A stretch of DNA of 64,000 nt from a virus (IMGVR_UViG_3300017912_002752), one strand, 5' to 3'. Counted from the stretch's first letter, positions 27,329 to 44,528 are shown. Notes: generated by a model not told the origin, from the sequence alone. Numbers and translations: made by a program.

Positions 27329-27380
27329 AGGAAATTGTTAAATTTTCTTTTTGACACACGAATCGTTCCCAAAATGGGAG

Positions 27381-28004: not shown

Positions 28005-28013
28005 AATTTAATT

Positions 28014-28529
28014 TTATAATCCTACGGGTGGAGTATCTTGTGTTGTTTCCAAATCCGTATCATCTTTCCTTACTTGTTCTTCTTGCCTTCTCTTAGACCT
28101 CGGTGATATTTTATCGTAAACACCGAAATCATAATTATACACCGTAACTTGACCTACATTCTTTTCTACTAAAGTTCTGTATCCGTTTTGTAGGTCTTTG
28201 TTTTTTAACTTTGATGTATAAAATTGTTTAGAGTTAACTTCTACTCTTAATTTACTTAAATCTAATTTTCTAATCTTAGGAGTATTACTTGTTACCTCAT
28301 CTAAATCTTCTGCAAGTTTAATAAACTTATCTGGTGCACAATCTTTCAAGTCTAAACAATGAAAGTAATTTTTAAAATTAGGTTGTAGAATAAAGACAAA
28401 CATATCTCTCTGAGTATTGTCTCTTTTCTTATATCTAATCTTAGCAACCATACCTCTCTCTAATTTAGAATTAGAGACTCTTGTAGGGTCTGTCATATTA
28501 CTTCTATGTCTACTTGTATAATCAGGCAT
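28014..28529 (-). CDS. hypothetical protein
   Basis: ORF in operon; faint resemblance to T4 gp2-type proteins, unconfirmed. Confidence 0.6.
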   Translation of the reverse strand: MPDYTSRHRSNMTDPTRVSNSKLERGMVAKIRYKKRDNTQRDMFVFILQPNFKNYFHCLDLKDCAPDKFIKLAEDLDEVTSNTPKIRKLDLSKLRVEVNSKQFYTSKLKNKDLQNGYRTLVEKNVGQVTVYNYDFGVYDKISPRSKRRQEEQVRKDDTDLETTQDTPPVGL

Positions 28530-29808: not shown

Positions 29809-31217
29809 ACTTTGTAAATATCAAATCTTTGTCTTGGTTTCCAATTTTCTAAACATCCATCAATTGCTTCAATGAATTTTTCACCCATTTTTTCTGATGC
29901 CATGTCACCATCGTTCACAATAAAGTCATGACCTTTTTTACCAGCCTCTTCACATCCATCTCTTCCCTTTTCATACCATCGTTGTATTGCCTCACCAATA
30001 TCTTTATATGAACATCTGTCATCGAAAATGTATGGAGTCAAAGGTGAACCTTGTAGTGATAAGTTAGATGGCCATATAGGTTCTACCCACTCACCCCAAG
30101 TTAATTCATCTATGATAGGATTGTCTTTGTCGTGTAGTGACCCAATCTCAACATAATCATCTGCGGTTAAAAACTTACCATTTCTTTTGAATCCACATTG
30201 GTCTTGTAGTCCACCTGTAACATTGACTACAACAGGAGTACCTGCTCTTAGTGCTTCACAAGAACCTAATCCAAACCCTTCATTGGATGCTACATTTAAA
30301 ACTACATCACATGAATTGTAAAACATATTTAGTTGTTCGGTTGAGAGTTTGTCTGTACTAAACCCTACATTACCAAACTTACAATTCATTTTAGCTAACT
30401 CAGGCATATCAGTACCATTGTCATCAATCGGATTTGTATGCATCCACAATAACATTTTCTTATCGGGGTGTTTTGCTGCAAATTGTTCAAATCCAAGAAT
30501 CACATCACCTGGTACTTTTCTACGAATATTTCTATTACACCACCCAACTATAAAATCATAGTCATTAAGTTTATACTTGTCTTTGTATGCTAATAGATTA
30601 GTGTCTGTAATCTCAAGTGGTTTGAATAATGGTGTTACACCATGTGGTATATATTTGTATGCCCAATCTTCTTTTGCCATATCATACCAATCAAGAGTTC
30701 TTTTGTTGATACCATATGTTTGTTTTGAAATACCTAATAGTAAATCACAACTTGCATAAAATGGTGAATTCCAATGTGGGTCTGGTAAAGAGTCCCAAAT
30801 ATTGTAATACATGATTGGACAAACTTGTCTTACCTCAACTTCCATATCATACAACCATCCCCAAAATCTTGGGTCTGTAAAATGTAATATGGCGTCAGGT
30901 TTTTCTATATTGATTAGTTGTCTTAAGATTTCAGGATTACCATAGCCAGTATTTGCGTATATTTTTAGATGTGCATCTTCTACGCCTGTAAACTTTCTTA
31001 TATCATCGTCCAATATGAATTGTTTTCCGTGGTCAGGATGTTTAAGTGCTGCACCTAACTGAACCCAATCATATTTGTGAATAGTAGATACAACAATCTC
31101 TTTAGATTGTGTTGCGATTCCACTATGTAATCTTAAATCATCTGAGAGTAAAAGTATCTTTGGTTTTTTAGGACCATCATTAGATACCTTTCTTAGTTTT
31201 GGTAGTTCTATACTCAT
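29805..31217 (-). CDS. glycosyltransferase family 4 (GT-B)
   Basis: NRNIRRK, NEGFGLGSCEA, TGGLQDQ. Confidence 0.88.
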   Translation of the reverse strand: MSIELPKLRKVSNDGPKKPKILLLSDDLRLHSGIATQSKEIVVSTIHKYDWVQLGAALKHPDHGKQFILDDDIRKFTGVEDAHLKIYANTGYGNPEILRQLINIEKPDAILHFTDPRFWGWLYDMEVEVRQVCPIMYYNIWDSLPDPHWNSPFYASCDLLLGISKQTYGINKRTLDWYDMAKEDWAYKYIPHGVTPLFKPLEITDTNLLAYKDKYKLNDYDFIVGWCNRNIRRKVPGDVILGFEQFAAKHPDKKMLLWMHTNPIDDNGTDMPELAKMNCKFGNVGFSTDKLSTEQLNMFYNSCDVVLNVASNEGFGLGSCEALRAGTPVVVNVTGGLQDQCGFKRNGKFLTADDYVEIGSLHDKDNPIIDELTWGEWVEPIWPSNLSLQGSPLTPYIFDDRCSYKDIGEAIQRWYEKGRDGCEEAGKKGHDFIVNDGDMASEKMGEKFIEAIDGCLENWKPRQRFDIYKV

Positions 31218-31267
31218 TCTATAACTTCTTCTTTTTTATTTAACTATAAATATACAAAAAATATTTA

Positions 31268-31612
31268 TTAAATCCTATTATATTCATCAGAAATTCTAAC
31301 AATATCATCTTCACCGAAATATGTACCTGTTTGAACTTCTATAAACTCAACGGGTTCATCAGTTTCGTTCCATGCTCTGTGTTTTGCACCTTTTGGTATT
31401 CTGATGGATTCCCCGTATTCTCTAAATACCTTTTCGTCATCTAAAACTATTGTTAGATTACCTTTCGTAACAATCCAACATTCTTGTCTTAAAAGATGAT
31501 ATTGATACGATAATTTTTGTCCTGGATTTACTGTAATCCTTTTTACTTTTGTTGTTGGGTCATCTAATAGTACCTCGTACTTTCCCCATGGTCTTTCATC
31601 TATTTCATTCAT
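31268..31612 (-). CDS. cupin, type II mannose-6-phosphate isomerase C-terminal domain
   Basis: RPWGKY, VKRITVNPG, LSYQYH, IEVQTGTYFGEDDIVR. Confidence 0.9.
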   Translation of the reverse strand: MNEIDERPWGKYEVLLDDPTTKVKRITVNPGQKLSYQYHLLRQECWIVTKGNLTIVLDDEKVFREYGESIRIPKGAKHRAWNETDEPVEFIEVQTGTYFGEDDIVRISDEYNRI

Positions 31613-32004
31613 TGTACAAAACTTGCCTTCTTTTTCCATCTATTTAACAATCTGTTAAAGTGATTAAATTCTTTTCTTGTAATTTCACCGAAATAAACTA
31701 TTTTGTCTGAGTTGTGTACAATACAATCATATTGATGAAGTGGTTGTGTTGGATGATATGGTCTATCATAATATTCATCGTCCATTCCACTATATAATGT
31801 TCTTGAGGTATGTGCAGGATTAAATTCAATATACTTTAGATTCATTTCTAATGCATATTTACGAACCCATTTTTCTACACCATTCTTTTTTCCTCTTGTG
31901 ATAATTGTTAAATCCTCACCAAACTTTTGTTTTAATTTAAAAATGGTCTCTTTTAGTTCACCTCTATTCTCGTATTTTTCATCCCCTATAAGAGCTATCT
32001 TCAT
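31609..32004 (-). CDS. SLOG/DUF2493-like protein
   Basis: MKIALIG...IITRG...GVEKWVRKYA; likely start 32004. Confidence 0.55.
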   Translation of the reverse strand: MKIALIGDEKYENRGELKETIFKLKQKFGEDLTIITRGKKNGVEKWVRKYALEMNLKYIEFNPAHTSRTLYSGMDDEYYDRPYHPTQPLHQYDCIVHNSDKIVYFGEITRKEFNHFNRLLNRWKKKASFVQ

Positions 32005-32488
32005 TTTTATTAAGTGTGTTTTGTACCTTTTTCCAATACTTTTTAGTTTGTTTCTTCTGTAATCCCTTCGGACCACCATTCCAGCACCTAGCGATTTCTT
32101 CATATGAACTCTCTTTGTGATAATAGTCTACAAACACATAAAACATTTCAATGGACTTTTCTTTGTCCCATCTATCGTCAAGTGTATAAAATCTATCATC
32201 TTTGTTTAGGTTTAATATTCTGTTTACATCATTTACCATGATAGGTCTAATTTGTAAAATTCCTGCAGCGTTTTCTCTTTTTGCATATGCGTCTTCTTTA
32301 CCTTTAGACTCTACCCATACCATTGCCTCGACTAAGTCATCGACATTTCTTACAATGGGTGCTATTTTAATTTCTTTTTGTTCAATTTTTATTTCTTCAA
32401 TTGGTAATGTCTCTATTTCATATACCATATCGGGTGAGTTTACCGAAGTACACAACAACCCCATCAACATTATTGAAAAATTTCTCAT
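31979..32488 (-). CDS. lysozyme-like/lytic transglycosylase with N-terminal signal
   Basis: VES catalytic Glu, AAGILQI, ARCWNGGP. Confidence 0.8.
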   Translation of the reverse strand: MRNFSIMLMGLLCTSVNSPDMVYEIETLPIEEIKIEQKEIKIAPIVRNVDDLVEAMVWVESKGKEDAYAKRENAAGILQIRPIMVNDVNRILNLNKDDRFYTLDDRWDKEKSIEMFYVFVDYYHKESSYEEIARCWNGGPKGLQKKQTKKYWKKVQNTLNKNEDSSYRG

Positions 32489-33440: not shown

Positions 33441-33496
33441 TAAAGATAAGAAAAAGACTTGGAATCGCCAAATCTTTTATGTTAAATAATTGTTAA
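33441..33496 (-). promoter_or_regulatory. promoter with TTAACA direct repeat
   Basis: TTAACA-N5-TTAACA-N7-TTTG-N20-TATCTTTA. Confidence 0.8.
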
Positions 33497-33499
33497 ATT

Positions 33500-33910
33500 T
33501 TACTTAGCCCACTTCTTTCTTTGGACTATCTGTGCTATAATTCCATAAACACTCATATCTTCGTAAGTATCTTGAATGTTTTCACCAACCTCATCTGGCT
33601 GACCTAAAACTACTAATTGTTTTAGTCTTTGGATTTTATCATTCATTCTAAACCATAAACCTGTTAGTGATATTTTTATTTCATCATCAGTTTGTAAATT
33701 AGTTCCAACTGATATGTTATCAGGTCCATAATTTCTTTGCTTTTTACAGAATGTTTCATACATTTCTTCTTGAATCTTTTTAAATTCATTTGTAGTATTT
33801 GGATACATTCTTTCACAATACTCTATTGCGGTCTCATCTACATTTCTATTCTCTACTCTCTCACCTTGCCACTCTACTTTATTTTTTCTATCTTTTATTG
33901 TTTGAGCCAT
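33500..33910 (-). CDS. DUF1599 / nucleotide modification-associated domain 1 protein
   Basis: KKQRNYG, RMNDKIQRL, ENIQDTYEDMSVYGII. Confidence 0.75.
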   Translation of the reverse strand: MAQTIKDRKNKVEWQGERVENRNVDETAIEYCERMYPNTTNEFKKIQEEMYETFCKKQRNYGPDNISVGTNLQTDDEIKISLTGLWFRMNDKIQRLKQLVVLGQPDEVGENIQDTYEDMSVYGIIAQIVQRKKWAK

Positions 33911-34341
33911 TTCTTTATTTCTTTTTTATCTAAACCATATTTTAACAATATTTCTGTAATATCGTCTTTGCTTAATATCTCAAGATAATCTCTAACTTCT
34001 CTTTGAGATACTTGATAATATTTTGCAAGATATTCTAAAACATTAGAATTATATTTGTCATCCTTTTTACCTTTTATGTATTTGTCAAATGACCTTCTTT
34101 TTGGTAAAAAGTCAAGGTACATTTTATAAACATCTCTTGGACTGAGTTGACCAATAGTAAACTTTTGAAGCTCGTTTACCAACTCCAATAGTCCCATATT
34201 CATAGAAAGAAACCTATTAACCATAAATGGTTCAAAGGTTTTTTTATCCATAACTGAAAGACTATCCCAAGGAGTTTTACTTTCCTTAAGTCCAGATAGA
34301 TGTTGAAATAATGTTTTAGCCTTCTTCGTTGACGCCATCAA
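33895..34341 (-). CDS. clamp loader small subunit (gp62-like)
   Basis: PFMVNRFLSM, YLAKYYQVSQRE; position near clamp loader ATPase. Confidence 0.7.
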   Translation of the reverse strand: MMASTKKAKTLFQHLSGLKESKTPWDSLSVMDKKTFEPFMVNRFLSMNMGLLELVNELQKFTIGQLSPRDVYKMYLDFLPKRRSFDKYIKGKKDDKYNSNVLEYLAKYYQVSQREVRDYLEILSKDDITEILLKYGLDKKEIKKWLKQ

Positions 34342-34606
34342 TCAATTCCTTTGGTGTAAATTTAGGATGAACAGTTCCACAATTGTTACACAATACAATT
34401 GGTATTGGTAACATTGACGCTTGACCTGATGGTGATTGAACCGCAGGTACTTCTTTGTACATGGTTACTTCATCAAAAAATATCCCACCACATTCAGGAC
34501 ATTTCACTGTCTCTAACTTTCTTGGGTCAAGTTTTAATTGAGGTTGTTGTTGTTGTGAATTTGGTTTACCAAAGTTGACAACTTTTCCTTTTCCTTTTTT
34601 TGCCAT
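34316..34606 (-). CDS. zinc-ribbon protein
   Basis: CPECG...CNNCG. Confidence 0.7.
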   Translation of the reverse strand: MAKKGKGKVVNFGKPNSQQQQPQLKLDPRKLETVKCPECGGIFFDEVTMYKEVPAVQSPSGQASMLPIPIVLCNNCGTVHPKFTPKELIDGVNEEG

Positions 34607-34608
34607 AA

Positions 34609-35529
34609 TTACTTTCCTAATGTCATTAAAATATTTAATATCATAGCCATCACATTGATTTCTTTATCAACGACCATTGAGTCTTTATATTGACCATCGG
34701 CTATATTCAAAATCGTGTGTCCAACTTTACCACTTGCATATGAATCTACTTCATCATAAAGTGCTCTATATAATGGTGTAAAATCTTTCACTTTAGAGTC
34801 TGCAATAATTTGTCTTATAGTATTGAACTTTGTTTTCATTTCACCACTATCTTGTAAAACTTTAATTACATCCTCGGTGTAGTTTGCCTGAATCGTAGAT
34901 GTAGTATCTATTTTTAACTCACCTTTGACAACTTGTCTTTGTGCCGAGTTCAATACTCTACGAATATCAGGGTAACCACTATTGACCAAAATTGCTAAGT
35001 CTTCTTTTTCAAACTTAACTGATTCCTCGTTTAATATATCAAACAATCTTTTAGCAACTTCCTTCTTTGAAGGTGGTGTTATTGCGAATGTCTGACAACG
35101 AGATTGGATTGGGTCAATAATTTTTTCTACATAGTTACAAGTTAAAATGAACCTTGTAGATTTACTAAAAGTTTCCATTAGATTACGAAGAGCTGCTTGA
35201 GCATTTGGTGTCAAATAGTCTGCTTCATCTAATATAATAACTTTCCACTTTCTGAAACCCATGGATGATGCGAATCCACGAATCTTATCACGGACTGCAT
35301 CAACAGAGTTTTCATCAGAAGCGTTGATATACATCAAATCACAATCAATCTGATTAGTGATTATCTTTGCGAGGGTAGTCTTACCTGTTCCTGCAACTCC
35401 ATAGAGTAACAAGTGTGGTACATCCTCATTCTCAATGTATATCTTTACTTTGTCTAAGATATGTTGATTACCAACATAACCATCTAATGTATCGGGTCTA
35501 TACTTTTCAACCCATAGTGAATTACTCAT
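34609..35529 (-). CDS. clamp loader AAA+ subunit (RFC/gp44-like)
   Basis: LWVEKYRP, GVAGTGKT, DEAD, SRC. Confidence 0.95.
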   Translation of the reverse strand: MSNSLWVEKYRPDTLDGYVGNQHILDKVKIYIENEDVPHLLLYGVAGTGKTTLAKIITNQIDCDLMYINASDENSVDAVRDKIRGFASSMGFRKWKVIILDEADYLTPNAQAALRNLMETFSKSTRFILTCNYVEKIIDPIQSRCQTFAITPPSKKEVAKRLFDILNEESVKFEKEDLAILVNSGYPDIRRVLNSAQRQVVKGELKIDTTSTIQANYTEDVIKVLQDSGEMKTKFNTIRQIIADSKVKDFTPLYRALYDEVDSYASGKVGHTILNIADGQYKDSMVVDKEINVMAMILNILMTLGK

Positions 35530-36716
35530 CTACCTACTTCTTTTAAATATGTTTCTTTTGCTTTGTCCCAACTCATTCCAATAATATCCATGTAATACAA
35601 TGTATCTGGTTTCAATCTGTTTTCATCGTGTAACTTAGTGTATCTTCTGATAGCTTTCTTTTTCCACCATCTGATTGTGTAATCGTCACCTTCTTCAAAC
35701 TTCTTCTTCATCTTAAGTTGACTTTCATCAATCTCATTTCTAAGAAATTCATTTCCGTTGTCATACATCATTGCGAAGTAAACACCTCTTTTGAATCCAT
35801 GTTGATATTGTGTACTTTTGATTCCTAACTCTTTAAAAATCATAGACAATATTCTTTGCTTGATACCAGATACAGGTCCTTGAATACCTTCTTTTTGAGT
35901 TGTAACTTTTTTATATTCTTCGGATTTGTTTTCTTTAATCCATTGATGCCAGATATCGTAAAATTCATTATCAGGTTTAGTGGAAACTTTACCTGTTGAT
36001 TCACCTAATGTTTTGAAGTGTGGGATTCCATTATACTGAGAATGGATTCCATAAAGAGAAGTTGTGCCAACTGCTATAAGAGTTTGTCCATACTTTTCTT
36101 TCCACAAGTCTCTGAATGTAGGTGAGGTTGTTAATGCTGATACAAGTTTACCACCTAAGAAATTATATCCTAAAGGTTGTGTTGCGATGATAGATGTTCC
36201 AATCGTAGTATGATTTAACTTACCATCTTTAAACTTATTCTCTTTATCCCAACCAATGTATTTATCACGGACACCTAAAGATGTTACATCAGAACCAAGA
36301 GATATTACACCAAGGACTTTACCACTTTTTCGGTCTTTAGCAAATGCTTTTATATTACGACCAGGATTAGCAGTAAATTCCATAGATGAAATACACTTAC
36401 GAATGTCAGTCCACTTCGCAGTGCCTGATGAATCTGTAATTAACTCAACATAAGGTTCTAACTCCTCAATCTCTTTGATTGTTAGTTCCTTATTGTAAAT
36501 GTCAGTCGGAGTCCAAATCATATCAAAAGACTTTGCAAGACTTGGTTTTCTTGCCATAGACTTTGGTAAATCTGAATTCCATTCCTGCCACTTTTTGTAA
36601 AGAGTTTGTTCTTCGACAGGCATAGTAGACAAATACTCCATGTTGTCAATGAATCGTTTTCTCTCTACATCGTAGTCAAAAACAGGTTTCGCTGGTTCTG
36701 TATCCCAAAATTGCAT
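35526..36716 (-). CDS. DUF4338/DruA-like protein (Mom/GNAT-related)
   Basis: PGRN, RDKYIGW, PLGYNFLGGKL, TTSLYG...SQYN, LGESTG. Confidence 0.7.
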   Translation of the reverse strand: MQFWDTEPAKPVFDYDVERKRFIDNMEYLSTMPVEEQTLYKKWQEWNSDLPKSMARKPSLAKSFDMIWTPTDIYNKELTIKEIEELEPYVELITDSSGTAKWTDIRKCISSMEFTANPGRNIKAFAKDRKSGKVLGVISLGSDVTSLGVRDKYIGWDKENKFKDGKLNHTTIGTSIIATQPLGYNFLGGKLVSALTTSPTFRDLWKEKYGQTLIAVGTTSLYGIHSQYNGIPHFKTLGESTGKVSTKPDNEFYDIWHQWIKENKSEEYKKVTTQKEGIQGPVSGIKQRILSMIFKELGIKSTQYQHGFKRGVYFAMMYDNGNEFLRNEIDESQLKMKKKFEEGDDYTIRWWKKKAIRRYTKLHDENRLKPDTLYYMDIIGMSWDKAKETYLKEVGR

Positions 36717-37411
36717 TACTTAATCTCTACTAAATAATAGTTAGACTTAAATCCATCATTCTCAAATGAGACATGAGCTAATCCACTTGGTGAAATCTTC
36801 AATGAAGATGATTTTGCACCTTTGTTAGCATTAAGGATTTCTTTTAAGTATTTTGCTGAGAATGAAATTGGTTCTACATCACCATCACATTCACACTCTA
36901 CATTAATAGAAATTCTGTTAGAGTTAATCTTTGAGTAACCTAAGATTACTTCACCTTTGTCACCTTTACAACTGAATGTAAATGTATCTGAATCAGATAA
37001 TGCACCTTTTGATTTTACAAACTTGTTTACAAAATCATTGTCCATCTTGATTGTAGATGTAAACTCAGGTAATTGTTTTAAATCTGGCACAACAGGTATA
37101 ACAGATAAATCAGCCAACATATAGTTTACTGAAGTTCCTTTATCTGAGAATACAAGTGATGCGTCACCTTCGTTTACATCAATGTCAGAATCTAATACAG
37201 TTAGTAATCCTTTTAATTGAGAGGTAGTGTAAACACCAAACTCACCACTTGGGAAGTCTTTGTTATCACTACTTACATTTCCTAATAGGGTCTTATCATC
37301 AGAAATAAATTTGACAGATAATCCCTCTTCTGTTGAATCAATTTTAACTGATTCGACTTCACCACCCAAGTTGTAACGAGTAATGAAACCTTCAAACGAG
37401 CTTTTTTTCAT
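36716..37411 (-). CDS. sliding clamp (gp45-like)
   Basis: 231 aa, EFGVY and FSAKYLKEIL; sits between PolB and clamp loader. Confidence 0.75.
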   Translation of the reverse strand: MKKSSFEGFITRYNLGGEVESVKIDSTEEGLSVKFISDDKTLLGNVSSDNKDFPSGEFGVYTTSQLKGLLTVLDSDIDVNEGDASLVFSDKGTSVNYMLADLSVIPVVPDLKQLPEFTSTIKMDNDFVNKFVKSKGALSDSDTFTFSCKGDKGEVILGYSKINSNRISINVECECDGDVEPISFSAKYLKEILNANKGAKSSSLKISPSGLAHVSFENDGFKSNYYLVEIK

Positions 37412-37433
37412 AATTTACTATTGTTTATTTTTA

Positions 37434-37465
37434 TTAATATACGAAATTTATTTTTAAAATCCAAA
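37434..37465 (-). promoter_or_regulatory. Bacteroidota-type promoter
   Basis: TTTG-N20-TATATTAA. Confidence 0.7.
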
Positions 37466-39970
37466 AAATTCTGAAGCTTTATTTAGATTTGGGTTTGGTT
37501 TCTCCCAATCCATAGCTTTATAGAAGTCATCAAGTTTATTTTCTAACTCCTTTTCCCAAATTTTATCGTAGTCGATATATTGTTCTACAAGTTTTAAAAT
37601 CTGAGGTGGGTCATTATGTCCTTTCAGACCCGTTGCCTCTAATCCAAGAGGATTCTTTTTCAAATATACCCACTTTATCTTGTCACCATCTTTCATAGGT
37701 TCGTATTTATATGGTACTTTATAGAAAGCAAGTAATTGATTGTATGTTATTGCTGCCTTTACATGAGCAGGTGAACCTTTTTTAAACTCACCCAATACTT
37801 GTGTTTTTGTTGTATATTTACTCATACCTTTGACTGCTGAGTTCTTTGCGATATCAATAAATGGTCTATCTTCCATTTCTTTTTTATAGTCAAGAATCTT
37901 AGTATCAATTTCTTTTTTATCAACGGACCTTAGAATATCTAACAAAACAGTTTTCATAACTTCTTTGAAGTAAGTTGGGAATGAACTTCTTTTAACATCC
38001 AATCCTTTTACATCTAACTTGTCACAATCAACTTCGTTATCATTGATAATCCATTGTGCGTATCTTTTCTTTGATACCCAAAATCCACCCTTTGCAATTG
38101 TTTCTTGTTTAATATCAAATTTATGAGAATCAATATTAAACAATCGTTTTGCCATTGTATCATAAACCTTGTTGATATGAGTTTCTACTTCTTTTGCTGC
38201 GGATAGAATCGCAGGAATCATTTCTTCATCCGAATCCTCATTGAGTTCAGGATTACGAGATTTTACTAATGGAGCGGCCTGATAAAAAACAGAATCAGTA
38301 TCGGTATAAACATTGTAGTCATCTTCTTTTCCTATTACTTTTGAATAATATTGATTTGCAATCAACTCAGTTGTTTTAATTACAGTTTGACCTGTAATCG
38401 TAGTTGCCTCTGCGTTATCTACATCATAAAATCTGAATGATGGTAGTCCCAGCACTCCATACAATGAGTTCAACATAATCTTTTGTACCAATTGTCGTTT
38501 ACCATAGAACTTGTATTGTTCGTCATTACCCTCTTTACCATACTTTTTCATCAAGTTTTTGTATTCAACTCTTTTGTCAAACCAAACACTTAGTATCTCA
38601 GGTATAACCCCAACTTTATCAGTTCTATATAAAACACCATTTGCGGCAACAGAGTATTTGTTTTTCTCAATAAACTTTAGAAACTTTTCTTTAGGTAAAG
38701 GTGGAAACTCATTACCACCATCATCTATAATTGAATAAGTTTCAAGATTACCTTTCATATGTTGTTCAGCAGAATAACCTTTTAGTTTACCAATCTTGGT
38801 CTCAGGTGATATATTGATACTCATAATAATAGATGGATATAGAGAAGTTAAATCCAAATCGTAAACCCATTTGTAAAGACCAGGTTTAGGTTCTTTTACA
38901 TACGCACCTGTAAATTTACCTTCACCATCAGAACCATCTTCATTTCTTGGTTTTCGTCTTGGTTTGTTGGGCGCCACCCTACCACTTCTTCTAAGGAATG
39001 TTAATATTGCTCCTTCTAACCATTTTGATGAGAATAAAAAATCTTCGTAGAACACATGACCTGTGTGACATATTGCCCTTGCCAAATCAATGAACTGAAG
39101 TTTTTTATCCAAGTCCACTACTAATTCAACATCAACTAAGTTGTACTCAATAAACTTCTCTATATCATCCCTAAATAATTGGTCCAAGTTACCTTCATAC
39201 TCAATCTTACCTCTACCCAACTCAATAGTTGCTACCGTGTCTAATCGATAGTTAGGTAATTCGGTAAAGTTGTAACACTTATAAAGTGCTAAATAATCCA
39301 AACAACTAACACCACCAATAATGTATCTACTTCTATATTTGTTATAGGATACTTTACCAATCGGTGACAACTGATTTGCGAATTGTTGACCAAACAATAG
39401 TTTGTATCTATTGTAAAGATAAGTAACATCAAAGTAGTCTATATTCCAACCTGTAACTATTGTTGGATTTATTTCTCTCCACTTTGTCATGAACGCTGAT
39501 AATAGACCTTCTTCAGTATCAAATGATTCTACCTTAGCTCCTTTGATTGTTTTATTAATCTTTTCACCTTGATTGACAACATAAACAAAATAATCATTTG
39601 TAATAGAATCGTGACCTGCGATTGAAGTGATTGCGTTACTTGCCGTTTCTATATCAGGCAACCCACTATTCATTTCAACCTCGATATCAAATGTCATGAT
39701 TGTATGTCCTGTTGAAACTTCATCAGAGTCACCATACTCATCAATCAAGAAACGAGTCATTTCGTTTACATCTGATTCATATAATTGTAAATCATCGTCT
39801 GCTTTCCAAAAATTTAATTTCTTGAGTCTTTCACCATGAATAGATTGGTGTGCTCCATTTCCATCCTTCACATAAGCATATCTACGATACTTAGATGTAA
39901 AGTAACCTTTCTGGTCATCCCAACAATGGATGATAGACTTTTCTTTTTCGAAGAATACATTTTGATACAT
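37454..39970 (-). CDS. DNA polymerase family B (gp43-like)
   Basis: Exo FDIE and GWNIDYFD; pol DLTSLYPS, KIMLNSLYG, YTDTDS, KKRY. Confidence 0.97.
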   Translation of the reverse strand: MYQNVFFEKEKSIIHCWDDQKGYFTSKYRRYAYVKDGNGAHQSIHGERLKKLNFWKADDDLQLYESDVNEMTRFLIDEYGDSDEVSTGHTIMTFDIEVEMNSGLPDIETASNAITSIAGHDSITNDYFVYVVNQGEKINKTIKGAKVESFDTEEGLLSAFMTKWREINPTIVTGWNIDYFDVTYLYNRYKLLFGQQFANQLSPIGKVSYNKYRSRYIIGGVSCLDYLALYKCYNFTELPNYRLDTVATIELGRGKIEYEGNLDQLFRDDIEKFIEYNLVDVELVVDLDKKLQFIDLARAICHTGHVFYEDFLFSSKWLEGAILTFLRRSGRVAPNKPRRKPRNEDGSDGEGKFTGAYVKEPKPGLYKWVYDLDLTSLYPSIIMSINISPETKIGKLKGYSAEQHMKGNLETYSIIDDGGNEFPPLPKEKFLKFIEKNKYSVAANGVLYRTDKVGVIPEILSVWFDKRVEYKNLMKKYGKEGNDEQYKFYGKRQLVQKIMLNSLYGVLGLPSFRFYDVDNAEATTITGQTVIKTTELIANQYYSKVIGKEDDYNVYTDTDSVFYQAAPLVKSRNPELNEDSDEEMIPAILSAAKEVETHINKVYDTMAKRLFNIDSHKFDIKQETIAKGGFWVSKKRYAQWIINDNEVDCDKLDVKGLDVKRSSFPTYFKEVMKTVLLDILRSVDKKEIDTKILDYKKEMEDRPFIDIAKNSAVKGMSKYTTKTQVLGEFKKGSPAHVKAAITYNQLLAFYKVPYKYEPMKDGDKIKWVYLKKNPLGLEATGLKGHNDPPQILKLVEQYIDYDKIWEKELENKLDDFYKAMDWEKPNPNLNKASEFFGF

Positions 39971-39974
39971 AAGT

Positions 39975-40006
39975 TAAATATACAAAAATTTTATGACATT
40001 ACCAAA
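39975..40006 (-). promoter_or_regulatory. Bacteroidota-type promoter
   Basis: TTTG-N20-TATATTTA. Confidence 0.7.
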
Positions 40007-40787
40007 AACTAACTGCGTTTTCTGGTGTATAAGTTTCATGTTTTTCTATTGGTGGTAAAAACTCCTCAGGGTCTTTTGGATATGGACTTGTTTTGTGTTT
40101 TAACATTTTACTAAGTTTCCGTTTTTCCGATTTGTTCTTACCTAAGATTTGAATGTACCTATGTTTAGGCGCCTCTTTCTTTCGCCAGAACTCTCTTACA
40201 TTCTGTTTTCCTATTTCTTTTTTTAAATGTTCTACATTATGTGACCCCCACTTAGAAAATACAGTCCTTGAATGAATCCAATCGTAAGGACTATCACTAA
40301 GTGATACTGAATAGTTTGGCATTAGTTGTATATCACGACAATCTTGATATAACCAATTAGTTGCTTGATAAATGCCACCGAGGTGTAATTGTTCAGGGTC
40401 TGCATAACTTAACAACATTTTAATTTTTGGTGCGTTTTCTTTCATCCATTTAAAAGACTGACCCATTGCGTATGATTCTATATTTGAACCATATCCATCA
40501 TGGATGAACAATCTTGTCAACTCCAAACACTCATCTTTCTCTAAACCATCAATTACAGACTTAATAGCTGAACGACCTACGGGATATCCATATACCAAGC
40601 AACCAATTAGTTTTTCACTACCAAAGAATCCATCATCACCATTGTAATATACACCGAGTGCATATCTACACATAGTCCACGCATGAGAGTAGTGATATTT
40701 TATAATCATCTGTTTTGCCACACTTTTATTGATTTCTCTAATAGAAACCTTTGATGTGTCTACATAATGTTTATTAGGTTCTTTCAA
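39999..40787 (-). CDS. Mom-family (GNAT-fold) DNA modification protein
   Basis: HYSH, LELTRL, ESY, SYADPEQLHLGGIYQATNW, KHRY. Confidence 0.8.
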   Translation of the reverse strand: MKEPNKHYVDTSKVSIREINKSVAKQMIIKYHYSHAWTMCRYALGVYYNGDDGFFGSEKLIGCLVYGYPVGRSAIKSVIDGLEKDECLELTRLFIHDGYGSNIESYAMGQSFKWMKENAPKIKMLLSYADPEQLHLGGIYQATNWLYQDCRDIQLMPNYSVSLSDSPYDWIHSRTVFSKWGSHNVEHLKKEIGKQNVREFWRKKEAPKHRYIQILGKNKSEKRKLSKMLKHKTSPYPKDPEEFLPPIEKHETYTPENAVSFW

Positions 40788-41526
40788 TTGGTTCTAATTT
40801 TTTTATTTCTTCTTCAAATAACTCACTCTGTTTAGGATATGGTAATGAAGGATATTTTAAACTCTTTAATATACGACTTTTTTTTGACTTATCCAAAATA
40901 TAAATGTATCTATGCTTTCTTGGTTCTTTTTTTATCCAAAAAGTTTTACCAATTACCTTTTGTATTTTAGTTGGATTATTAGTTCCATAATATGGAAAAA
41001 TTGTTCTACCATGTTGCCACTCACCATTTTCCTCAAACTTAAATAACCAACTATCATTTGGTCTAATTCTATTTCCTTGATATATCCAGTTTGTAGATTG
41101 ATAAACAGTTCCCAAATGACCTGCTTTTGGGTCTGAGTATGATATCAATCCTTTAATATGTCTTGCGTGTTTTCTTAACCACTTAAATGTTTGTCCAACA
41201 AACCAACTCTCAACATTACATCCATATCCATCGAATACGAATAATCTTGTGAGTTCTAACACTTCTTTTCTGTCTAATAACTCTGATATTGATTGACCAG
41301 AGTGTCTTCCGATTGGGTCACCATATGTTGCAACACCAATTAACTTATCTGTTGATGAAAAGAAAGAGTGTGAATCATCCTCGACATATAACCCCAAACA
41401 ATAACTAACTTTAGTCCAAATACCACTATAATGGTTTTTTATGATAATGTCCTTTGCTACTGATTTTGAGATAGGTCTTACGGATAACTTTGAAATATCT
41501 GTATACTCTTTCCCTTTAATTTTCAT
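40774..41526 (-). CDS. Mom-family (GNAT-fold) DNA modification protein, paralog
   Basis: HYSG, LELTRL, ESW, SYSDPKAGHLGTVYQSTNW, KHRY. Confidence 0.8.
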   Translation of the reverse strand: MKIKGKEYTDISKLSVRPISKSVAKDIIIKNHYSGIWTKVSYCLGLYVEDDSHSFFSSTDKLIGVATYGDPIGRHSGQSISELLDRKEVLELTRLFVFDGYGCNVESWFVGQTFKWLRKHARHIKGLISYSDPKAGHLGTVYQSTNWIYQGNRIRPNDSWLFKFEENGEWQHGRTIFPYYGTNNPTKIQKVIGKTFWIKKEPRKHRYIYILDKSKKSRILKSLKYPSLPYPKQSELFEEEIKKLEPIERT

Positions 41527-41726
41527 TGATAATCGTTAAATTCACCAAACAATAAATGTTTCCAAGTTTCACCTCTAACTATTTTTCTTATGTTAGCAGG
41601 TGACACACCGTTGTTTCTTGCCAATACTCTAATGTTACGATGACCAACAGACCACAACTTACGAATAGACCTTACTTGTCTTTCCGTTAATTTATGTTGT
41701 GGATGTAATTCACCTCTTAATGCCAT
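41523..41726 (-). CDS. small HTH DNA-binding protein (HNH-endonuclease C-terminal type, no nuclease domain)
   Basis: GELHPQHKLTERQVRSIR...LARNNGVSPANIRKIVRGETWKH; ATG 41726 lies below the promoter. Confidence 0.7.
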   Translation of the reverse strand: MALRGELHPQHKLTERQVRSIRKLWSVGHRNIRVLARNNGVSPANIRKIVRGETWKHLLFGEFNDYQ

Positions 41727-41740
41727 TCTAAACCTTTTCA

Positions 41741-41772
41741 CTAATATACAAAATTTTTATTAATTTTCCAAA
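41741..41772 (-). promoter_or_regulatory. Bacteroidota-type promoter for HTH-mom-mom unit
   Basis: TTTG-N20-TATATTAG. Confidence 0.72.
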
Positions 41773-42317
41773 AATAAATCACCAACTTCTAAACCAGATG
41801 GTACTTTATCCCATAAGTTGATTGCGATTGCTCTTCTTGTACCACGAGTAACTTTAGTAACTCGATGTGTATGTTCACCTGCAGGAAATATAACCAATCT
41901 ATTGTATTTTGGTTCTAATCTTTCAGGTTCACCATGTTGCCCATGTGGATAAATTTCAAGGTAACCACCATCGATATCATTTTCCCATGGATAAAAAACA
42001 GTACCTATTACAGGTGTAACTATTTCTTTTGTTTGATTATACCAATACTCATCTTTATCAAAATGAAATGGTAAATCATCTCTTTCTTCGGTTGATGAAT
42101 AAACACCAATCCAATATTCAAACCCCTCAACATTTACTGATGGGTATGGTGAGTTTTCACCCCAAATATATTGTATCAATCTTTTTTTAATTGTATTTGC
42201 AGGTGAGTTCCACCAACCATCCCACCACATATAACCTTTGGTATCAAAGAAGGTCGTGTCATTCTTTAGGTCATTTAATAGTTGTTGGTCTTTTATGAAA
42301 TCATCTATTACAATCAT
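41760..42317 (-). CDS. 2OG-Fe(II) oxygenase (prolyl 4-hydroxylase-like)
   Basis: FHFDKDE (HxD), GGYL, NRLVIF...HRV, RRAIAINLW. Confidence 0.82.
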   Translation of the reverse strand: MIVIDDFIKDQQLLNDLKNDTTFFDTKGYMWWDGWWNSPANTIKKRLIQYIWGENSPYPSVNVEGFEYWIGVYSSTEERDDLPFHFDKDEYWYNQTKEIVTPVIGTVFYPWENDIDGGYLEIYPHGQHGEPERLEPKYNRLVIFPAGEHTHRVTKVTRGTRRAIAINLWDKVPSGLEVGDLFLEN

Positions 42318-43405
42318 AAGTCTTCTACTTTCTTTAGTGCCGATGCGATTACTTGGTGCATATCGTAATACTTGTATTCTGCTAATCTACCACCAAATAT
42401 AACTTTATCTTGTGCATCAGCTAATTTTTTATACTTTTGATATATCTCGTTGTTAGTTTTATCATTTACAGGATAATATGGCTCTACTCCCCTTTCATAA
42501 GGTTGTGGATACTCCCAACTAACATAAGTTCCTTTTTGATTTTGATTATCAAAATGTTTATGCTCTATAACTCGTGTATATGGTGTTTCTGAGTCCGTAT
42601 AATTCATTAATGCACATCCTTGATGATTATCTTTTGATTTATACATCTTACTCATCCAATGTAAAGACTTGTATTCCAAATCACCATACTTGTAGTCAAA
42701 ATACAAATCAATCGGACCTGTATAAATTACTTTATCACCCAACCCATCCCAAAAATCTTTTTTATCAAAATAATCTGTATTTGTAAATACTTCAACATCC
42801 TCTAATAATCTTTCAAATATCTGAGTGTATCCACCAATTGGTATTCCTTGATATTTGTCATTAAAATAATTGTTGTTATATGTGTATCTTACAGGCAGTC
42901 GTTTGATAATTGACTTTGGAAGTAACTTAGCTGGCTTCATCCATTGTTTTTGAGTATAACCTTTTATTAACTTTTCGTAAATATCTTTACCAACAAGAGC
43001 CTCTGCTTGTTCTTCTAAGTTAGTAGGATTACCTTTAAATCTTTGTGACTCAATCTTTTGTTTTGCTCCTTCAGGTGTTGTCACTCTCCACATTTTATTG
43101 AATGTGTACATATTGAAAGGTAGTGGATATATTTCACCTTTATAGTTTGCAACTATATTAAGTTGAAACTGATGAAAGTCTACAAACTGATTTATCCAAT
43201 GCCAAACCTTTTCATTATTTGTATGAAATATGTGTGGTCCATATTTGTGTACATGAATACCTTCTATTTCTTCGGTATAACAATTACCACCAATGTGGTC
43301 TCGTTTTTCAATAACACAAACCTTTTTACCTTGTTCTTTAAGTTCATATGCACATACTGCCCCAAAGAAACCTGAACCCACTATTACATAATCATATTTA
43401 GCCAT
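42314..43405 (-). CDS. glf: UDP-galactopyranose mutase
   Basis: IVGSGFFG, HIGGNCY, HKYGPHIFHT, YQGIP, GRLAEYKYYDMHQVI. Confidence 0.95.
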   Translation of the reverse strand: MAKYDYVIVGSGFFGAVCAYELKEQGKKVCVIEKRDHIGGNCYTEEIEGIHVHKYGPHIFHTNNEKVWHWINQFVDFHQFQLNIVANYKGEIYPLPFNMYTFNKMWRVTTPEGAKQKIESQRFKGNPTNLEEQAEALVGKDIYEKLIKGYTQKQWMKPAKLLPKSIIKRLPVRYTYNNNYFNDKYQGIPIGGYTQIFERLLEDVEVFTNTDYFDKKDFWDGLGDKVIYTGPIDLYFDYKYGDLEYKSLHWMSKMYKSKDNHQGCALMNYTDSETPYTRVIEHKHFDNQNQKGTYVSWEYPQPYERGVEPYYPVNDKTNNEIYQKYKKLADAQDKVIFGGRLAEYKYYDMHQVIASALKKVEDL

Positions 43406-44528
43406 CTATTCCTTTTAATGCGATTAAGTGTAATCTACTTGGTTCATCACTCGTATCGGTATATGAGTGGTCTTCAATCAAAAATTGCCATTTTGGGAAT
43501 GGATTTTTTCTGTTAACATCAACTAACATTTTTGTAGCTTGAAGCATTCTGTGATAATCTTTGTTCTTTTCATGGATTTTCGCCAATAGTGTAAAGTTTT
43601 CATTTCTATCAGGACAAAACTCATGTGCTCTATTTAACCATTCTATTGCTTTTTCAGTTTCACCTATAAGTTCATATGCATTACCAATACCTAAACAACA
43701 CCAATAAGTAAACTCATCACCTACTACATCTATTTTATTGAAAAATCTATATTCTGGATTTACAACATAGATATATTGCTTAAAGTAAAATATGCATCTT
43801 CGTACAAACTCTTTTCGGTGGTCTTCACCAAATGGAAAATCACTTCTAAGAGTATCATAATAGGACTTTGCTATATAAAATAAGTGATATTTATCTTCTA
43901 ATACCTTATTATTAGGTATTGTATCTAATTCTAAATTTAGTGCATCTTTTAGAAACTTCATAGGTTGTAACCATGTCTGACCATCATTGGTTAAAATATG
44001 TCTAAACTTTTTATCTAAATTTACTCTTTGAAAAGTTTCTCCTATATCATCTCTATCTAAGTAAATTGTTTCATGTGCTTTTTCAGGATAAAATCTCCAA
44101 GGTTCTTTAGCATTCCACAACCAAGTTCTGAAATACATTATACCAGGCCCTTGACATGGTACATTCCAACTTTGTACTGATGTATCATTAAATACTGACC
44201 AATCAAAACCATCATCGACTTGTAATTGTTCGTCTGCATCAACTCTAAGAATCCAATCACATCCGTGGTCTGCCTCTAATGCGGTTCTTACACAATGGTC
44301 TCGATTTATACCATGTCCCTTCCACCAATCTAATTGATATAGGAAACCAGGTATTCCCTTCTCGTTAAAAAAGTTTTTAATTATGTCTTGAGTTCCATCG
44401 GTTGAACCATTATCTTGAATAACCCAATAGTCAATGTATGGGTATACACTTTCCAACATTCTCTCAATAACATGAGATTCGTTATTAACCATTGTGTTAA
44501 AACAAAACTTTGCAGTAGTGTTTTTCAT
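43398..44528 (-). CDS. glycosyltransferase family 2 with TPR-like C-terminus
   Basis: MVNNESHVIERML, DNGSTDGT, DADE, HE; helical repeats. Confidence 0.85.
   Translation of the reverse strand: MKNTTAKFCFNTMVNNESHVIERMLESVYPYIDYWVIQDNGSTDGTQDIIKNFFNEKGIPGFLYQLDWWKGHGINRDHCVRTALEADHGCDWILRVDADEQLQVDDGFDWSVFNDTSVQSWNVPCQGPGIMYFRTWLWNAKEPWRFYPEKAHETIYLDRDDIGETFQRVNLDKKFRHILTNDGQTWLQPMKFLKDALNLELDTIPNNKVLEDKYHLFYIAKSYYDTLRSDFPFGEDHRKEFVRRCIFYFKQYIYVVNPEYRFFNKIDVVGDEFTYWCCLGIGNAYELIGETEKAIEWLNRAHEFCPDRNENFTLLAKIHEKNKDYHRMLQATKMLVDVNRKNPFPKWQFLIEDHSYTDTSDEPSRLHLIALKGIDG

What the first reader, a model, noticed from the sequence alone, without database searches (positions are those of the whole stretch)
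33500..41772. Replisome-embedded multi-enzyme DNA modification candidate: HTH-Mom-Mom, PolB, clamp, DUF4338, clamp loader, DUF1599
Seen: two divergent Mom-like paralogs in tandem (39999-41526) with their own promoter, and an ATGA-coupled HTH gene, directly upstream of PolB. A DUF4338/DruA-like protein is wedged between clamp and clamp loader, and DUF1599 ends the clamp-loader run. Known: Mu Mom is a GNAT-fold adenine-modifying enzyme, and DUF1599 is associated with phage nucleotide modification. Inference: three Mom/GNAT-type enzymes within the replication block suggest a layered or heteromeric base modification laid down during replication, of undefined chemistry.
Basis: partly seen in the sequence, partly recalled or inferred. 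Interest (0 to 1): 0.8.

Follow-up and report, generated by a model that had tools for sequence, protein, structure and literature searches.

The report
Mom and DruA acyltransferases in replication block
An uncultured T4-like phage carries two intact copies of the Mom DNA-modifying enzyme and a related DruA-type enzyme among its DNA-replication genes, and this layout, kept across many relatives, suggests the DruA family works on DNA too.

Summary
All genes lie on the minus strand, in the order HTH, Mom1, Mom2, PolB, clamp, DruA/DUF4338, gp44, Zn-ribbon, gp62, DUF1599.

- **Mom pair:** both proteins are strong Pfam Mom hits. They are 48% identical and keep six of the seven proposed active-site residues of Mu Mom. 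They form two old sister clades in relatives.
- **DruA-like protein:** its model is confident (pLDDT 94). Its best solved-structure match out of 48,161 chains is Mu Mom (Z 10.2).
- **Synteny:** the layout is conserved in IMG/VR relatives down to about 66% identity.

The genes look like separable accessory modules, not one obligate multi-enzyme machine.
- The nearest isolate, Mel-JY01, has the same replication backbone without Mom or DruA.
- Cyanophages carry DruA inside the clamp-loader cluster without a detectable Mom.
- One relative keeps only Mom2.
- DUF1599 is missing from relatives that keep the other genes.

Short DruA-family genes occupy Mom slots in some relatives, which ties the two families together functionally. 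Mom2, the extra paralog Mom3 and some methyltransferases end in aromatic tails like the PolB clamp-binding tail. Whether they ride the clamp is untested. I rate this a new variant of a known kind.

The scan had also noted this stretch, and the tail idea, in overlapping windows of the same genome.

The parts
41743..41752 (-). Promoter-like motif TTTGTATATT directly upstream of the HTH-Mom1-Mom2 unit
   Evidence: the motif occurs 9 times in the window against 1.34 expected; it is kept upstream of the HTH gene in close relatives.
41523..41741 (-). Small HTH-like gene (72 aa; the true start is probably the ATG at 41726, giving 67 aa), translationally coupled (ATGA) to Mom1
   Evidence: weak HTH hits; sequence. 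It travels with the Mom genes in all relatives, including the rearranged L056 and L073.
40774..41526 (-). Mom1, a Mom-family GNAT (250 aa)
   Evidence: Pfam Mom E 9e-46. PDB 8bv8 Mu Mom E 2.6e-11. Residues H58, Y59, R111, S124, D149, Y159 and W181 are kept; position 151 is K. It forms a monophyletic clade.
39999..40787 (-). Mom2, a paralogous Mom-family GNAT (262 aa; TTG start overlapping Mom1 by 14 nt)
   Evidence: Pfam Mom E 9e-49. 48% identical to Mom1. The same catalytic residues are kept; position 151 is E, F or G. It is the sister clade to Mom1.
40002..40073 (-). Mom2 C-terminal extension beyond the Mu Mom end (PYPK), ending in an invariant F-W at the C-terminus
   Evidence: The aromatic tail is shared only with PolB, Mom3 and DNA methyltransferases among 612 distinct ORFs.
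39977..39986 (-). Same promoter-like motif upstream of PolB
37454..39970 (-). Family B DNA polymerase (gp43-like) with a T4-type C-terminal tail ..NKASEFFGF
   Evidence: The T4 gp43 tail is ..EEKASLDFLFG.
37436..37445 (-). Promoter-like motif TTCGTATATT upstream of the clamp gene, conserved in nearly all relatives
36716..37411 (-). Sliding clamp (gp45-like)
   Evidence: phrog_223 E 8e-10 and PCNA_C weak. Position as in T4.
35526..36716 (-). DruA/DUF4338-family protein (396 aa): N-terminal helical region, Mom-like GNAT core (about residues 81-340), C-terminal helices. Its start overlaps the clamp stop (TAATG) and its end overlaps the gp44 start.
   Evidence: Pfam DruA 68 bits. PADLOC DruA. AF2 pLDDT 93.9. 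Best solved match is Mu Mom, Z 10.2. 1049 representative clusters.
34609..35529 (-). Clamp loader large subunit (gp44-like AAA+)
   Evidence: phrog_168 E 2e-82.
34316..34606 (-). Small Zn-ribbon protein between gp44 and gp62 (part of the backbone, not of the modification genes)
   Evidence: Conserved in relatives. A small ORF sits in the same slot in Mel-JY01.
33895..34341 (-). Clamp loader small subunit (gp62-like)
   Evidence: Phage_clamp_A E 1e-7; phrog_225 E 4e-21.
33500..33910 (-). DUF1599-like all-helical protein of unknown function, last gene of the clamp operon
   Evidence: Pfam 24.2 bits against a cut-off of 25. Atlas neighbours are all DUF1599. Absent from relatives that keep DruA, and in L039 also Mom1 and Mom2.
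33452..33478 (-). Terminator-like hairpin followed by a T-run, closing the clamp-to-DUF1599 unit

Best explanation
The stretch is the T4-type replication block (PolB, clamp, clamp loader) of an uncultured phage whose near-complete relatives are about 175 kb. Accessory DNA-modification genes have settled in this block as separable modules. A shared promoter-like motif suggests they are expressed with the replication genes.

**Module 1: the HTH-Mom1-Mom2 unit.** Both Mom paralogs look catalytically competent. Each most likely does what Mu Mom does: it takes an aminoacyl group from a charged tRNA and puts it on the N6 of adenine in double-stranded phage DNA, which protects that DNA from host nucleases. 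I think the paralogs are specificity variants, differing in sequence context or in the aminoacyl-tRNA donor, whose coverage adds up. I do not think they are an obligate heterodimer.

**Module 2: the DruA/DUF4338 protein.** It is co-translated with the clamp. It is a GNAT whose closest solved relative is Mom. I infer that it is a second nucleic-acid-directed acyltransferase of the same functional class. Its donor and target are unknown.

**DUF1599.** It is a dispensable neighbour of unknown role.

**Shown here:** family membership, kept residues, the fold, synteny and independent occurrence of the modules.
**Inferred:** activity on DNA, the chemistry, and divergent specificity.
For: **Mom pair**
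- Pfam Mom E 9e-49 and 9e-46; direct hits to the Mu Mom structure 8bv8.
- H58, Y59, R111, S124, D149, Y159 and W181 of Mu Mom are kept in every Mom1, Mom2 and Mom3. Their importance is documented in PMC13219725.
- Mom1 and Mom2 are reciprocally monophyletic sister clades (SH-aLRT 96 and 97). Each has many clade-specific invariant positions: 52 and 37, with 10 fixed differences. This fits long purifying selection on two distinct functions.

**Copy number varies, as expected for specificity paralogs**
- One Mom gene in L073 and L062; two in most relatives.
- Three in L046, and in L005, L010, L031, L033 and L072, which carry an extra 203-aa Mom3 between PolB and the clamp.

**DruA-like protein**
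- AF2 pLDDT 93.9. Best of 48,161 chains is Mu Mom: Z 10.2, rmsd 3.5, 165 residues. Generic GNATs score 8.8 or less.
- Relatives are fused to ParB_N and UDG DNA-binding domains. A ParB_N-DruA cluster has 235 members, mostly viral.
- Short DruA-family genes (Pfam 33-35 bits) replace Mom3 in the PolB-clamp slot (L039, L041), or sit between HTH and Mom1 (L048, L051).
- A 56-58% identical DruA sits near the terminase in unrelated small phage contigs, a mobility that would fit an autonomous accessory gene.

**Modularity**
- Mel-JY01 has the PolB-clamp-gp44-small ORF-gp62 backbone without Mom or DruA.
- In L056 the Mom unit and the clamp-DruA unit lie apart.

**Synteny counts**
- clamp-DruA-gp44 in 54 of 73 loci.
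- Mom1-Mom2-PolB adjacent in 25 of 32 loci that reach 2 kb upstream of PolB.

**Shared expression signal**
- The motif occurs 9 times against 1.3 expected, upstream of HTH, PolB and the clamp.
Against: - No DNA modification has been measured; the phage is known only from metagenomes.
- Mu residue R151, essential in Mu, is K in Mom1 and E, F or G in Mom2. The Mu dimer residue W48 is S or A. Mechanistic details therefore differ from Mu.
- A profile-profile comparison of DruA against Mom is not significant (probability 12%). The link rests on fold and gene context.
- Foldseek E-values to PDB are weak, and Z 10.2 is only 1.4 above generic GNATs.
- GNATs mostly acylate proteins and small molecules, so a non-DNA substrate for DruA is quite possible.
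- Strict start-stop overlap of Mom1 and Mom2 in nearly all relatives would also fit a heteromer.
Confidence: 0.55

Rival explanations
1. Mom1, Mom2 and the DruA-like enzyme, perhaps with DUF1599, form one layered or heteromeric pathway. It is tethered to the sliding clamp and marks DNA as it leaves the replisome.
For: - Mu Mom is an obligate dimer (PMC13219725). Mom1 and Mom2 are start-stop overlapped in nearly all relatives.
- DruA is start-stop overlapped with the clamp gene.
- Mom2 ends in an invariant FW, and Mom3 ends in WFGF or QWFG, like the PolB tail FFGF/FFSF. That PolB tail matches the T4 gp43 tail ..KASLDFLFG.
- Among 612 distinct ORFs of the related loci, such tails occur only on PolB, Mom2, Mom3 and two DNA methyltransferases.
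- Cyanophages of four genera also keep DruA inside the clamp-loader cluster.
Against: - L073 keeps Mom2 without Mom1, although its sister L056 has both.
- No Synechococcus phage was among the listed Mom-hit organisms, yet 25 of them carry DruA.
- DUF1599 is absent from relatives that keep DruA, and L039 also keeps Mom1 and Mom2.
- In L056 the Mom unit is far from the clamp-DruA unit.
- Mom1 and the DruA-like protein have no aromatic tail.
- The tail pattern was defined after seeing it. The two methyltransferases are homologous to each other, and a third homologue with the same tail sits in a contig that is not T4-like.
- The gp45-gp44-gp62 region of T4-like phages holds many unrelated accessory genes, such as denV, speD and a methyltransferase. 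Position alone is therefore weak evidence.
Confidence: 0.2
2. The DruA-like GNAT does not modify DNA. It acylates a protein (a replisome or host protein) or a small molecule, and merely shares the GNAT fold with Mom.
For: - Most characterised GNATs act on proteins or small molecules; the structural hits other than Mom are of that kind.
- There is no significant sequence-profile link to Mom.
- It is co-translated with the clamp and clamp loader in two phage groups.
Against: - The best structural match is Mom, not a protein acetyltransferase.
- Relatives are fused to the ParB_N and UDG DNA-binding domains.
- Short DruA genes occupy Mom slots and sit inside the Mom operon.
- It is also found next to the terminase in small phages that show no clamp genes in the fetched stretch.
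Confidence: 0.2
3. One Mom paralog is a non-catalytic partner, for specificity or regulation, of the other.
For: Tight translational coupling. Position 151, essential as R in Mu, is variable (E, F or G) in Mom2 but is always K in Mom1.
Against: Both clades keep H58, Y59, R111, S124, D149 and Y159 invariant. Position 151 is also not R in the single Mom of Polaribacter phage P12002L. L073 keeps only Mom2.
Confidence: 0.08
4. The phage DruA homologue is an anti-defence decoy or inhibitor aimed at host Druantia type I systems.
For: It belongs to the signature family of Druantia type I. Phages do sometimes carry homologues of defence proteins.
Against: - The family is large and mostly viral in the Atlas clusters.
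- Many residues are near-invariant in the alignment, which suggests a working enzyme rather than a decoy.
- It is present in phages of cyanobacteria and SAR11. No Druantia genes lie nearby.
Confidence: 0.05

Closest known systems
Bacteriophage Mu Mom (PDB 8bv8; Silva et al. 2026, PMC13219725)
   Same: Same Pfam family. Alignable over Mu residues 30-232, including the essential helical insertion (W181). H58, Y59, R111, S124, D149 and Y159 are kept. A small regulatory-looking gene overlaps the start, as com does for Mu mom.
   Different: - Two to three paralogs per genome instead of one.
- Embedded in a T4-like replication block instead of the end of a transposable phage genome.
- R151 and the dimer residue W48 are not kept.
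- Mom1 and Mom2 have C-terminal extensions; the Mom2 extension ends in an invariant FW.
- The upstream gene is HTH-like, not a zinc-finger Com.
- Donor tRNA and target motif are unknown.
DruA (DUF4338, PF14236), signature protein of type I Druantia defence
   Same: Pfam and PADLOC family hit. GNAT core, as Aravind's group stated for DUF4338 (PMC10853773).
   Different: It is phage-encoded and has no DruB-E neighbours. Only the central region matches the bacterial DruA profile (residues 105-358). It belongs to a largely viral subfamily. The function of DruA itself is unpublished in the literature I could search.
DruA-like 'putative cytoplasmic protein' (T4-like GC 1216) of marine cyanomyoviruses, and DUF4338 proteins of the pelagiphages HTVC008M and Mosig
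   Same: Homologous at 26-33% identity. In cyanophages it also lies inside the clamp and clamp-loader gene cluster. The structural likeness to DruA was already noted in the Phold preprint.
   Different: A different slot (gp44-gp62 rather than gp45-gp44). No Synechococcus phage appeared among the listed Mom hits. The pelagiphage copies lie outside the clamp-loader cluster, between other accessory genes.
Clamp-tethered DNA-modifying enzymes such as eukaryotic DNMT1 with its PCNA-binding motif, and the T4 gp43 C-terminal clamp-binding tail (from my own knowledge)
   Same: The PolB tail here closely matches the T4 gp43 tail. Mom2, Mom3 and some methyltransferases carry similar aromatic C-termini.
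   Different: No binding has been shown for any of these phage enzymes. Mom1 and DruA lack such tails.

Membership tests
Mom family (PF25680) | Profile HMM match above the curated cut-off | tested here: met
   166.3 and 156.5 bits against a cut-off of 27.1. Mom3 of relatives scores 118.8 bits.
Mom family (PF25680) | Catalytic and active-site residues H58, Y59, R111, S124, D149 and Y159 of Mu Mom | tested here: met
   All are kept in every Mom1, Mom2 and Mom3 sequence (alignments).
Mom family (PF25680) | R151, essential in Mu Mom | tested here: not met
   K in Mom1; E, F or G in Mom2; S or T in Mom3. It is also M in the Polaribacter phage P12002L Mom, so this residue is not family-wide.
Mom family (PF25680) | Homodimer through the W48 interface | tested here: not met
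   W48 is S or A in both paralogs. The oligomeric state itself was not tested.
Mom family (PF25680) | Helical insertion between the last strands (Mu 175-209), needed for activity | tested here: met
   The alignment to 8bv8 runs through this region with W181 kept. The fold of Mom1 and Mom2 was not predicted here.
Mom family (PF25680) | Aminoacyl-tRNA-dependent acylation of adenine N6 in dsDNA | not testable with these tools
   Biochemical property. Known for Mu Mom and two metagenomic homologues (PMC13219725).
DruA / DUF4338 (PF14236) | Profile HMM match above the curated cut-off | tested here: met
   68 bits against 27. PADLOC DruA E 3e-22. Nearest Atlas clusters are 100% DruA.
Type I Druantia defence system | DruA encoded together with DruB, DruC, DruD and the DruE helicase | tested here: not met
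   The neighbours are clamp, gp44 and other phage replication genes. This is a phage genome.
GNAT superfamily (for the DruA-like protein) | GNAT fold of the core domain | tested here: met
   The pLDDT 93.9 model has Mu Mom as its top hit (Z 10.2), followed by dozens of GNATs at Z 7.6-8.8 over residues 81-340. Foldseek hits are all acyltransferases.
GNAT superfamily (for the DruA-like protein) | Acyl-CoA pyrophosphate-binding loop (Q/R-x-x-G-x-G/A) after strand 4 | tested here: inconclusive
   The near-invariant Q180-P181-x-G183 and G188-G189-K190 follow strand 170-178, which resembles the loop. No structural superposition or ligand test was possible.
DUF1599 (PF07659) | Profile HMM match above the curated cut-off | tested here: inconclusive
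   24.2 bits against 25, covering profile positions 18-59 of 61. All 30 nearest Atlas clusters carry DUF1599. The AF2 model was too poor to use (pLDDT 58).
T4-type clamp-binding C-terminal tail | Extreme C-terminal aromatic motif like T4 gp43 ..KASLDFLFG | tested here: met
   For PolB only..NKASEFFGF against T4 ..EEKASLDFLFG.
T4-type clamp-binding C-terminal tail | The same motif, and actual clamp binding, in Mom2 | tested here: inconclusive
   Mom2 ends in an invariant FW on a conserved extension. Binding is not shown.

The most novel reading that the evidence does not exclude
The DruA/DUF4338 family is a sister class to Mom: enzymes that acylate nucleobases in DNA. On this reading, this phage lineage stacks up to four or five Mom- and DruA-class enzymes, several of them held on the sliding clamp by polymerase-like C-terminal tails, so that new DNA is hypermodified as it is made. 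It would also follow that type I Druantia uses DruA to mark or sense DNA by acylation.
Probability: 0.2. Interest if true: 0.85.

Novelty: new variant of a known kind. Interest (0 to 1): 0.62.

Why it matters
- **Mom paralogs.** Mom was only recently shown to be a tRNA-dependent DNA hypermodifying enzyme, and it has been studied as a single gene. This is a widespread uncultured T4-like lineage found in marine and other environmental metagenomes. It keeps two anciently diverged, intact Mom paralogs, plus an optional third. That offers a natural experiment on how donor and target specificity evolve in this enzyme class.
- **DruA.** The DruA family defines type I Druantia, yet I found no published function for it. 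Three findings here make a DNA-directed activity directly testable by simple expression and nucleoside mass spectrometry. Its nearest solved fold is Mom. Its short forms swap places with Mom genes. It is fused to ParB and UDG domains.
- **Clamp tails.** The polymerase-like tails on Mom2, Mom3 and the methyltransferases suggest clamp-tethered DNA modification in phages, which has not been described.

Tried and rejected
- **Clamp-tail complex.** Complex prediction with the clamp trimer plus the Mom2 tail (residues 222-262) gave no verdict: score 0.03 against a mark of 0.32, and the controls were not run. This is neither support nor evidence against binding.
- **DruA versus Mom profiles.** hhalign of the DruA profile against the Mom profile gave probability 12%, so there is no sequence-level link. 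A single short DruA against the Mom1 profile gave probability 2.5%, with only a motif-level likeness (G-x-V-Y-x-A-x-N-W).
- **DUF1599 structure.** AF2 gave pLDDT 58 with a shallow alignment, so I made no fold search with it.
- **Nucleotide search.** Megablast of the region against isolated phages found no match. No whole genome is held for this window.
- **Literature.** Searches on DUF1599 and 'Nmad' found nothing usable. No paper on DruA function was found.
- **Fusion contexts.** The contigs carrying the UDG-DruA and ParB-DruA fusions were too short to add information.
- **Generic sigma-70 scan.** It found no more sites than shuffled sequence (59 against 60.8).
- **Glycosyltransferases as DNA glycosylation.** I considered linking Glf, GT2-TPR and the GT4 genes to DNA glycosylation and did not pursue it. 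They vary among relatives, and they belong to, or resemble, a large glycan island.

Full report
**What is there.** The window has about 32% GC, all genes lie on the minus strand, and it has no tRNA genes. Read along the coding strand, the region holds these genes:
- a small HTH-like gene (41523-41741)
- Mom1 (40774-41526)
- Mom2 (39999-40787)
- family B DNA polymerase (37454-39970)
- sliding clamp (36716-37411)
- a DruA/DUF4338 protein (35526-36716)
- clamp loader gp44 (34609-35529)
- a Zn-ribbon protein (34316-34606)
- clamp loader gp62 (33895-34341)
- a DUF1599-like protein (33500-33910)

Upstream lie a 2OG-Fe(II) oxygenase, UDP-galactopyranose mutase, a GT2-TPR protein, NrdA/B, a DnaB-like helicase, UvsX and SSB. 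Downstream lie an exonuclease and a glycosyltransferase island. The only weak items are the HTH assignment and DUF1599. DUF1599 scores 24.2 bits against a cut-off of 25, but all 30 nearest ESM-Atlas clusters are DUF1599.

**Transcription units.**
- A motif TTYGTATATT occurs 9 times in the window against 1.34 expected, and none of 100 shuffles reached 9.
- On the coding strand it sits just upstream of the HTH gene, PolB, the clamp gene and a glycosyltransferase gene.
- It is conserved upstream of the clamp gene in nearly all relatives.
- A terminator-like hairpin follows DUF1599.
- Gene junctions overlap: HTH/Mom1 by ATGA, Mom1/Mom2 by 14 nt, clamp/DruA by TAATG, and DruA/gp44 by 4 nt.

The predicted units are therefore HTH-Mom1-Mom2, PolB, and clamp-DruA-gp44-Zn-gp62-DUF1599. 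All three sit behind the same kind of signal. The motif abuts the annotated GTG of the HTH gene, so its real start is probably the ATG at 41726.

**The Mom pair.** Mu Mom is now known to be a GNAT. It transfers glycine from Gly-tRNA(Gly) to N6 of adenine in dsDNA after replication, and the adduct then rearranges. The enzyme is an obligate dimer. Residues H58, Y59, R111, S124, D149, R151 and Y159 were proposed as its active site, W181 is also needed for activity, and a helical insertion is essential (PMC13219725).
- Mom1 and Mom2 hit the Mu structure 8bv8 directly.
- In an alignment with Mu Mom they keep H58, Y59, R111, S124, D149, Y159 and W181.
- Position 151 is K in every Mom1 and E, F or G in Mom2. 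It is not R in the Polaribacter phage Mom either, so it is not a family-wide requirement.
- The Mu dimer residue W48 is S or A.
- Mom1 and Mom2 are 48% identical.
- In a tree of 37 sequences they form two well-supported sister clades that each span the whole phage lineage. The duplication is therefore old, and both copies have been kept under constraint.
- Mom1 has 52 clade-specific invariant positions, Mom2 has 37, and 10 positions are fixed differences.

**Relatives.** The DruA-like protein recovered 73 IMG/VR loci. The near-complete contigs are 168-178 kb.
- The order HTH-Mom1-Mom2-PolB-clamp-DruA-gp44-Zn-gp62-(DUF1599)-exonuclease is kept down to about 66% protein identity.
- clamp-DruA-gp44 is adjacent in 54 of 73 loci. 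Mom1-Mom2-PolB is adjacent in 25 of the 32 loci that reach 2 kb upstream of PolB.
- The Mom set is plastic. L073 has only HTH-Mom2, followed directly by DruA and PolB, while its sister L056 has both Moms. L046 has three Moms in tandem.
- L005, L010, L031, L033 and L072 add a 203-aa Mom3 between PolB and the clamp. L062 has a lone Mom between DruA and gp44.
- In L056 the Mom unit and the clamp-DruA unit lie apart.
- DUF1599 is missing from a whole subgroup that keeps DruA; L039 of that subgroup also keeps Mom1 and Mom2.
- The nearest isolated phage by PolB, Microcystis phage Mel-JY01 (48%), has the same PolB-clamp-gp44-small ORF-gp62 backbone but neither Mom nor DruA.
- Among 291 isolated phage records with a Mom match, none has two.

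These facts point to separable accessory modules placed in a conserved replication backbone. The Mom copies behave like specificity paralogs rather than subunits of an obligate complex.

**The DruA-like protein.** It belongs to PF14236 (68 bits) and to the PADLOC DruA profile. It has 1049 representative clusters of relatives, many of them alignable over the full length.
- With a 58-sequence alignment, AlphaFold2 gives pLDDT 93.9.
- An exhaustive structural comparison with 48,161 solved chains puts Mu Mom first: Z 10.2, rmsd 3.5 Å, 165 residues, model residues 81-326. Ordinary GNATs follow at Z 8.8 or less.
- Foldseek finds only acyltransferases, including Mom, at weak E-values.
- Sequence profiles of DruA and Mom do not match significantly.

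Context supports a nucleic-acid substrate.
- Longer relatives carry N-terminal ParB_N or UDG-superfamily domains. A ParB_N-DruA cluster of 235 mostly viral members exists in the ESM Atlas.
- Small phage contigs that are not T4-like carry a 56-58% identical copy near the terminase, together with a short 232-aa DruA paralog.
- Most telling, short DruA-family genes (192-207 aa, 33-35 bits) sit in the slots that Mom genes use in other relatives. They lie between PolB and the clamp in L039 and L041, and between HTH and Mom1 in L048 and L051.

Isolated phages also have the family.
- It is in two SAR11 myophages and 25 Synechococcus myophages.
- In four cyanophage genera it lies between gp44 and gp62.
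- No Synechococcus phage was among the listed Mom-hit organisms.
- The likeness of these cyanophage proteins to DruA was noted in the Phold preprint. DUF4338 was called a GNAT by Aravind's group.
- I found no paper on what DruA does.

**Clamp tails.**
- PolB ends ..NKASEFFGF, close to T4 gp43 ..EEKASLDFLFG. That this tail binds gp45 is from my own knowledge of the T4 literature.
- Mom2 has a conserved extension beyond the Mu Mom C-terminus that always ends in FW. Mom3 ends in ..KWFGF or ..QWFG.
- Among 612 distinct ORFs of 100 aa or more in the related loci, a pattern covering these endings matches 56. They are 34 PolB, 15 Mom2, 5 Mom3 and two DNA N6/N4-methyltransferases.
- The pattern was written after seeing the tails. 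The two methyltransferases are homologues of each other, and a third homologue with the same ending lies in a contig that is not T4-like.
- Mom1 and the DruA-like protein have no such tail.

This is a real but modest lead for clamp-tethered modification.

**Reading.** Most likely (about 0.55), this is a phage that protects its DNA with several Mom-class acyltransferases expressed alongside the replication genes. Mom1 and Mom2 would be two independently active, specificity-diverged, tRNA-dependent adenine modifiers. The DruA-like protein would be a further nucleic-acid-directed GNAT of unknown donor and target. DUF1599 has no demonstrated link to either module.

**Novelty.** Mom, DruA-like phage proteins and T4-type replication blocks are all known. 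Four things are new:
- the conserved multi-paralog Mom array in a T4-like lineage
- the structural and positional tie between the DruA and Mom families
- the recurrent placement of DruA in the clamp/clamp-loader cluster of distant T4-like groups
- the polymerase-like tails on DNA-modifying enzymes

I rate this a new variant of a known kind, with interest 0.62.

Noticed in passing
window 41760-44528: Three overlapping genes lie just upstream of the Mom unit: a 2OG-Fe(II) oxygenase (prolyl-hydroxylase type), UDP-galactopyranose mutase (Glf, E 1e-74) and a GT2-TPR glycosyltransferase. Their presence varies among relatives: the oxygenase is often kept next to the HTH gene, while Glf and GT2-TPR are often absent.
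   Followed up: partly
window 25607-31639: A glycan island: an HMGL-like aldolase fused to a cytidylyltransferase (573 aa), a GT2, two GT4 genes and a mannose-6-phosphate-isomerase-type cupin. The GT4 operon is preceded by the same TTTGTATATT motif, fused to a TATTTATA element.
   Followed up: partly
window 8657-8666, 31249-31258, 37436-37445, 39977-39986, 41743-41752, 56940-56949 (minus strand): The promoter-like motif TTYGTATATT occurs 9 times against 1.3 expected, mostly 1-31 nt upstream of start codons. It is very close to the start at HTH, PolB and the 56931 gene, which may mean short or absent leaders. The promoter class is unknown.
   Followed up: partly
L039:6176-8673: PolB is split into two overlapping ORFs (500 aa and 354 aa) in this relative. 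This could be a frameshift, an assembly error or a genuinely split polymerase.
   Followed up: no
L012:97-918, L050:4247-5215, L066:428-1999: DNA N6/N4-methyltransferases (PF01555) in related contigs all end in ..KFW or ..NFWG. The L012 copy sits in the PolB-clamp slot that Mom3 or a short DruA uses elsewhere.
   Followed up: partly
BFVD hits of model m2ee76399c77a: Giant viruses (Faunusvirus, Yasminevirus, Dasosvirus) have proteins with the DruA-like fold (Foldseek E 9e-19 to 7e-9), some over 1100 aa long.
   Followed up: no
window 34316-34606: A small Zn-ribbon protein between gp44 and gp62 is conserved through the lineage. An ORF of similar size sits in the same slot in Microcystis phage Mel-JY01. 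It may be an extra clamp-loader accessory protein.
   Followed up: no
window 31609-32488: Two overlapping ORFs after the exonuclease: one with an SLT lytic transglycosylase domain (E 9e-6) and one with a weak SLOG/YspA-like hit (E 2e-4).
   Followed up: no
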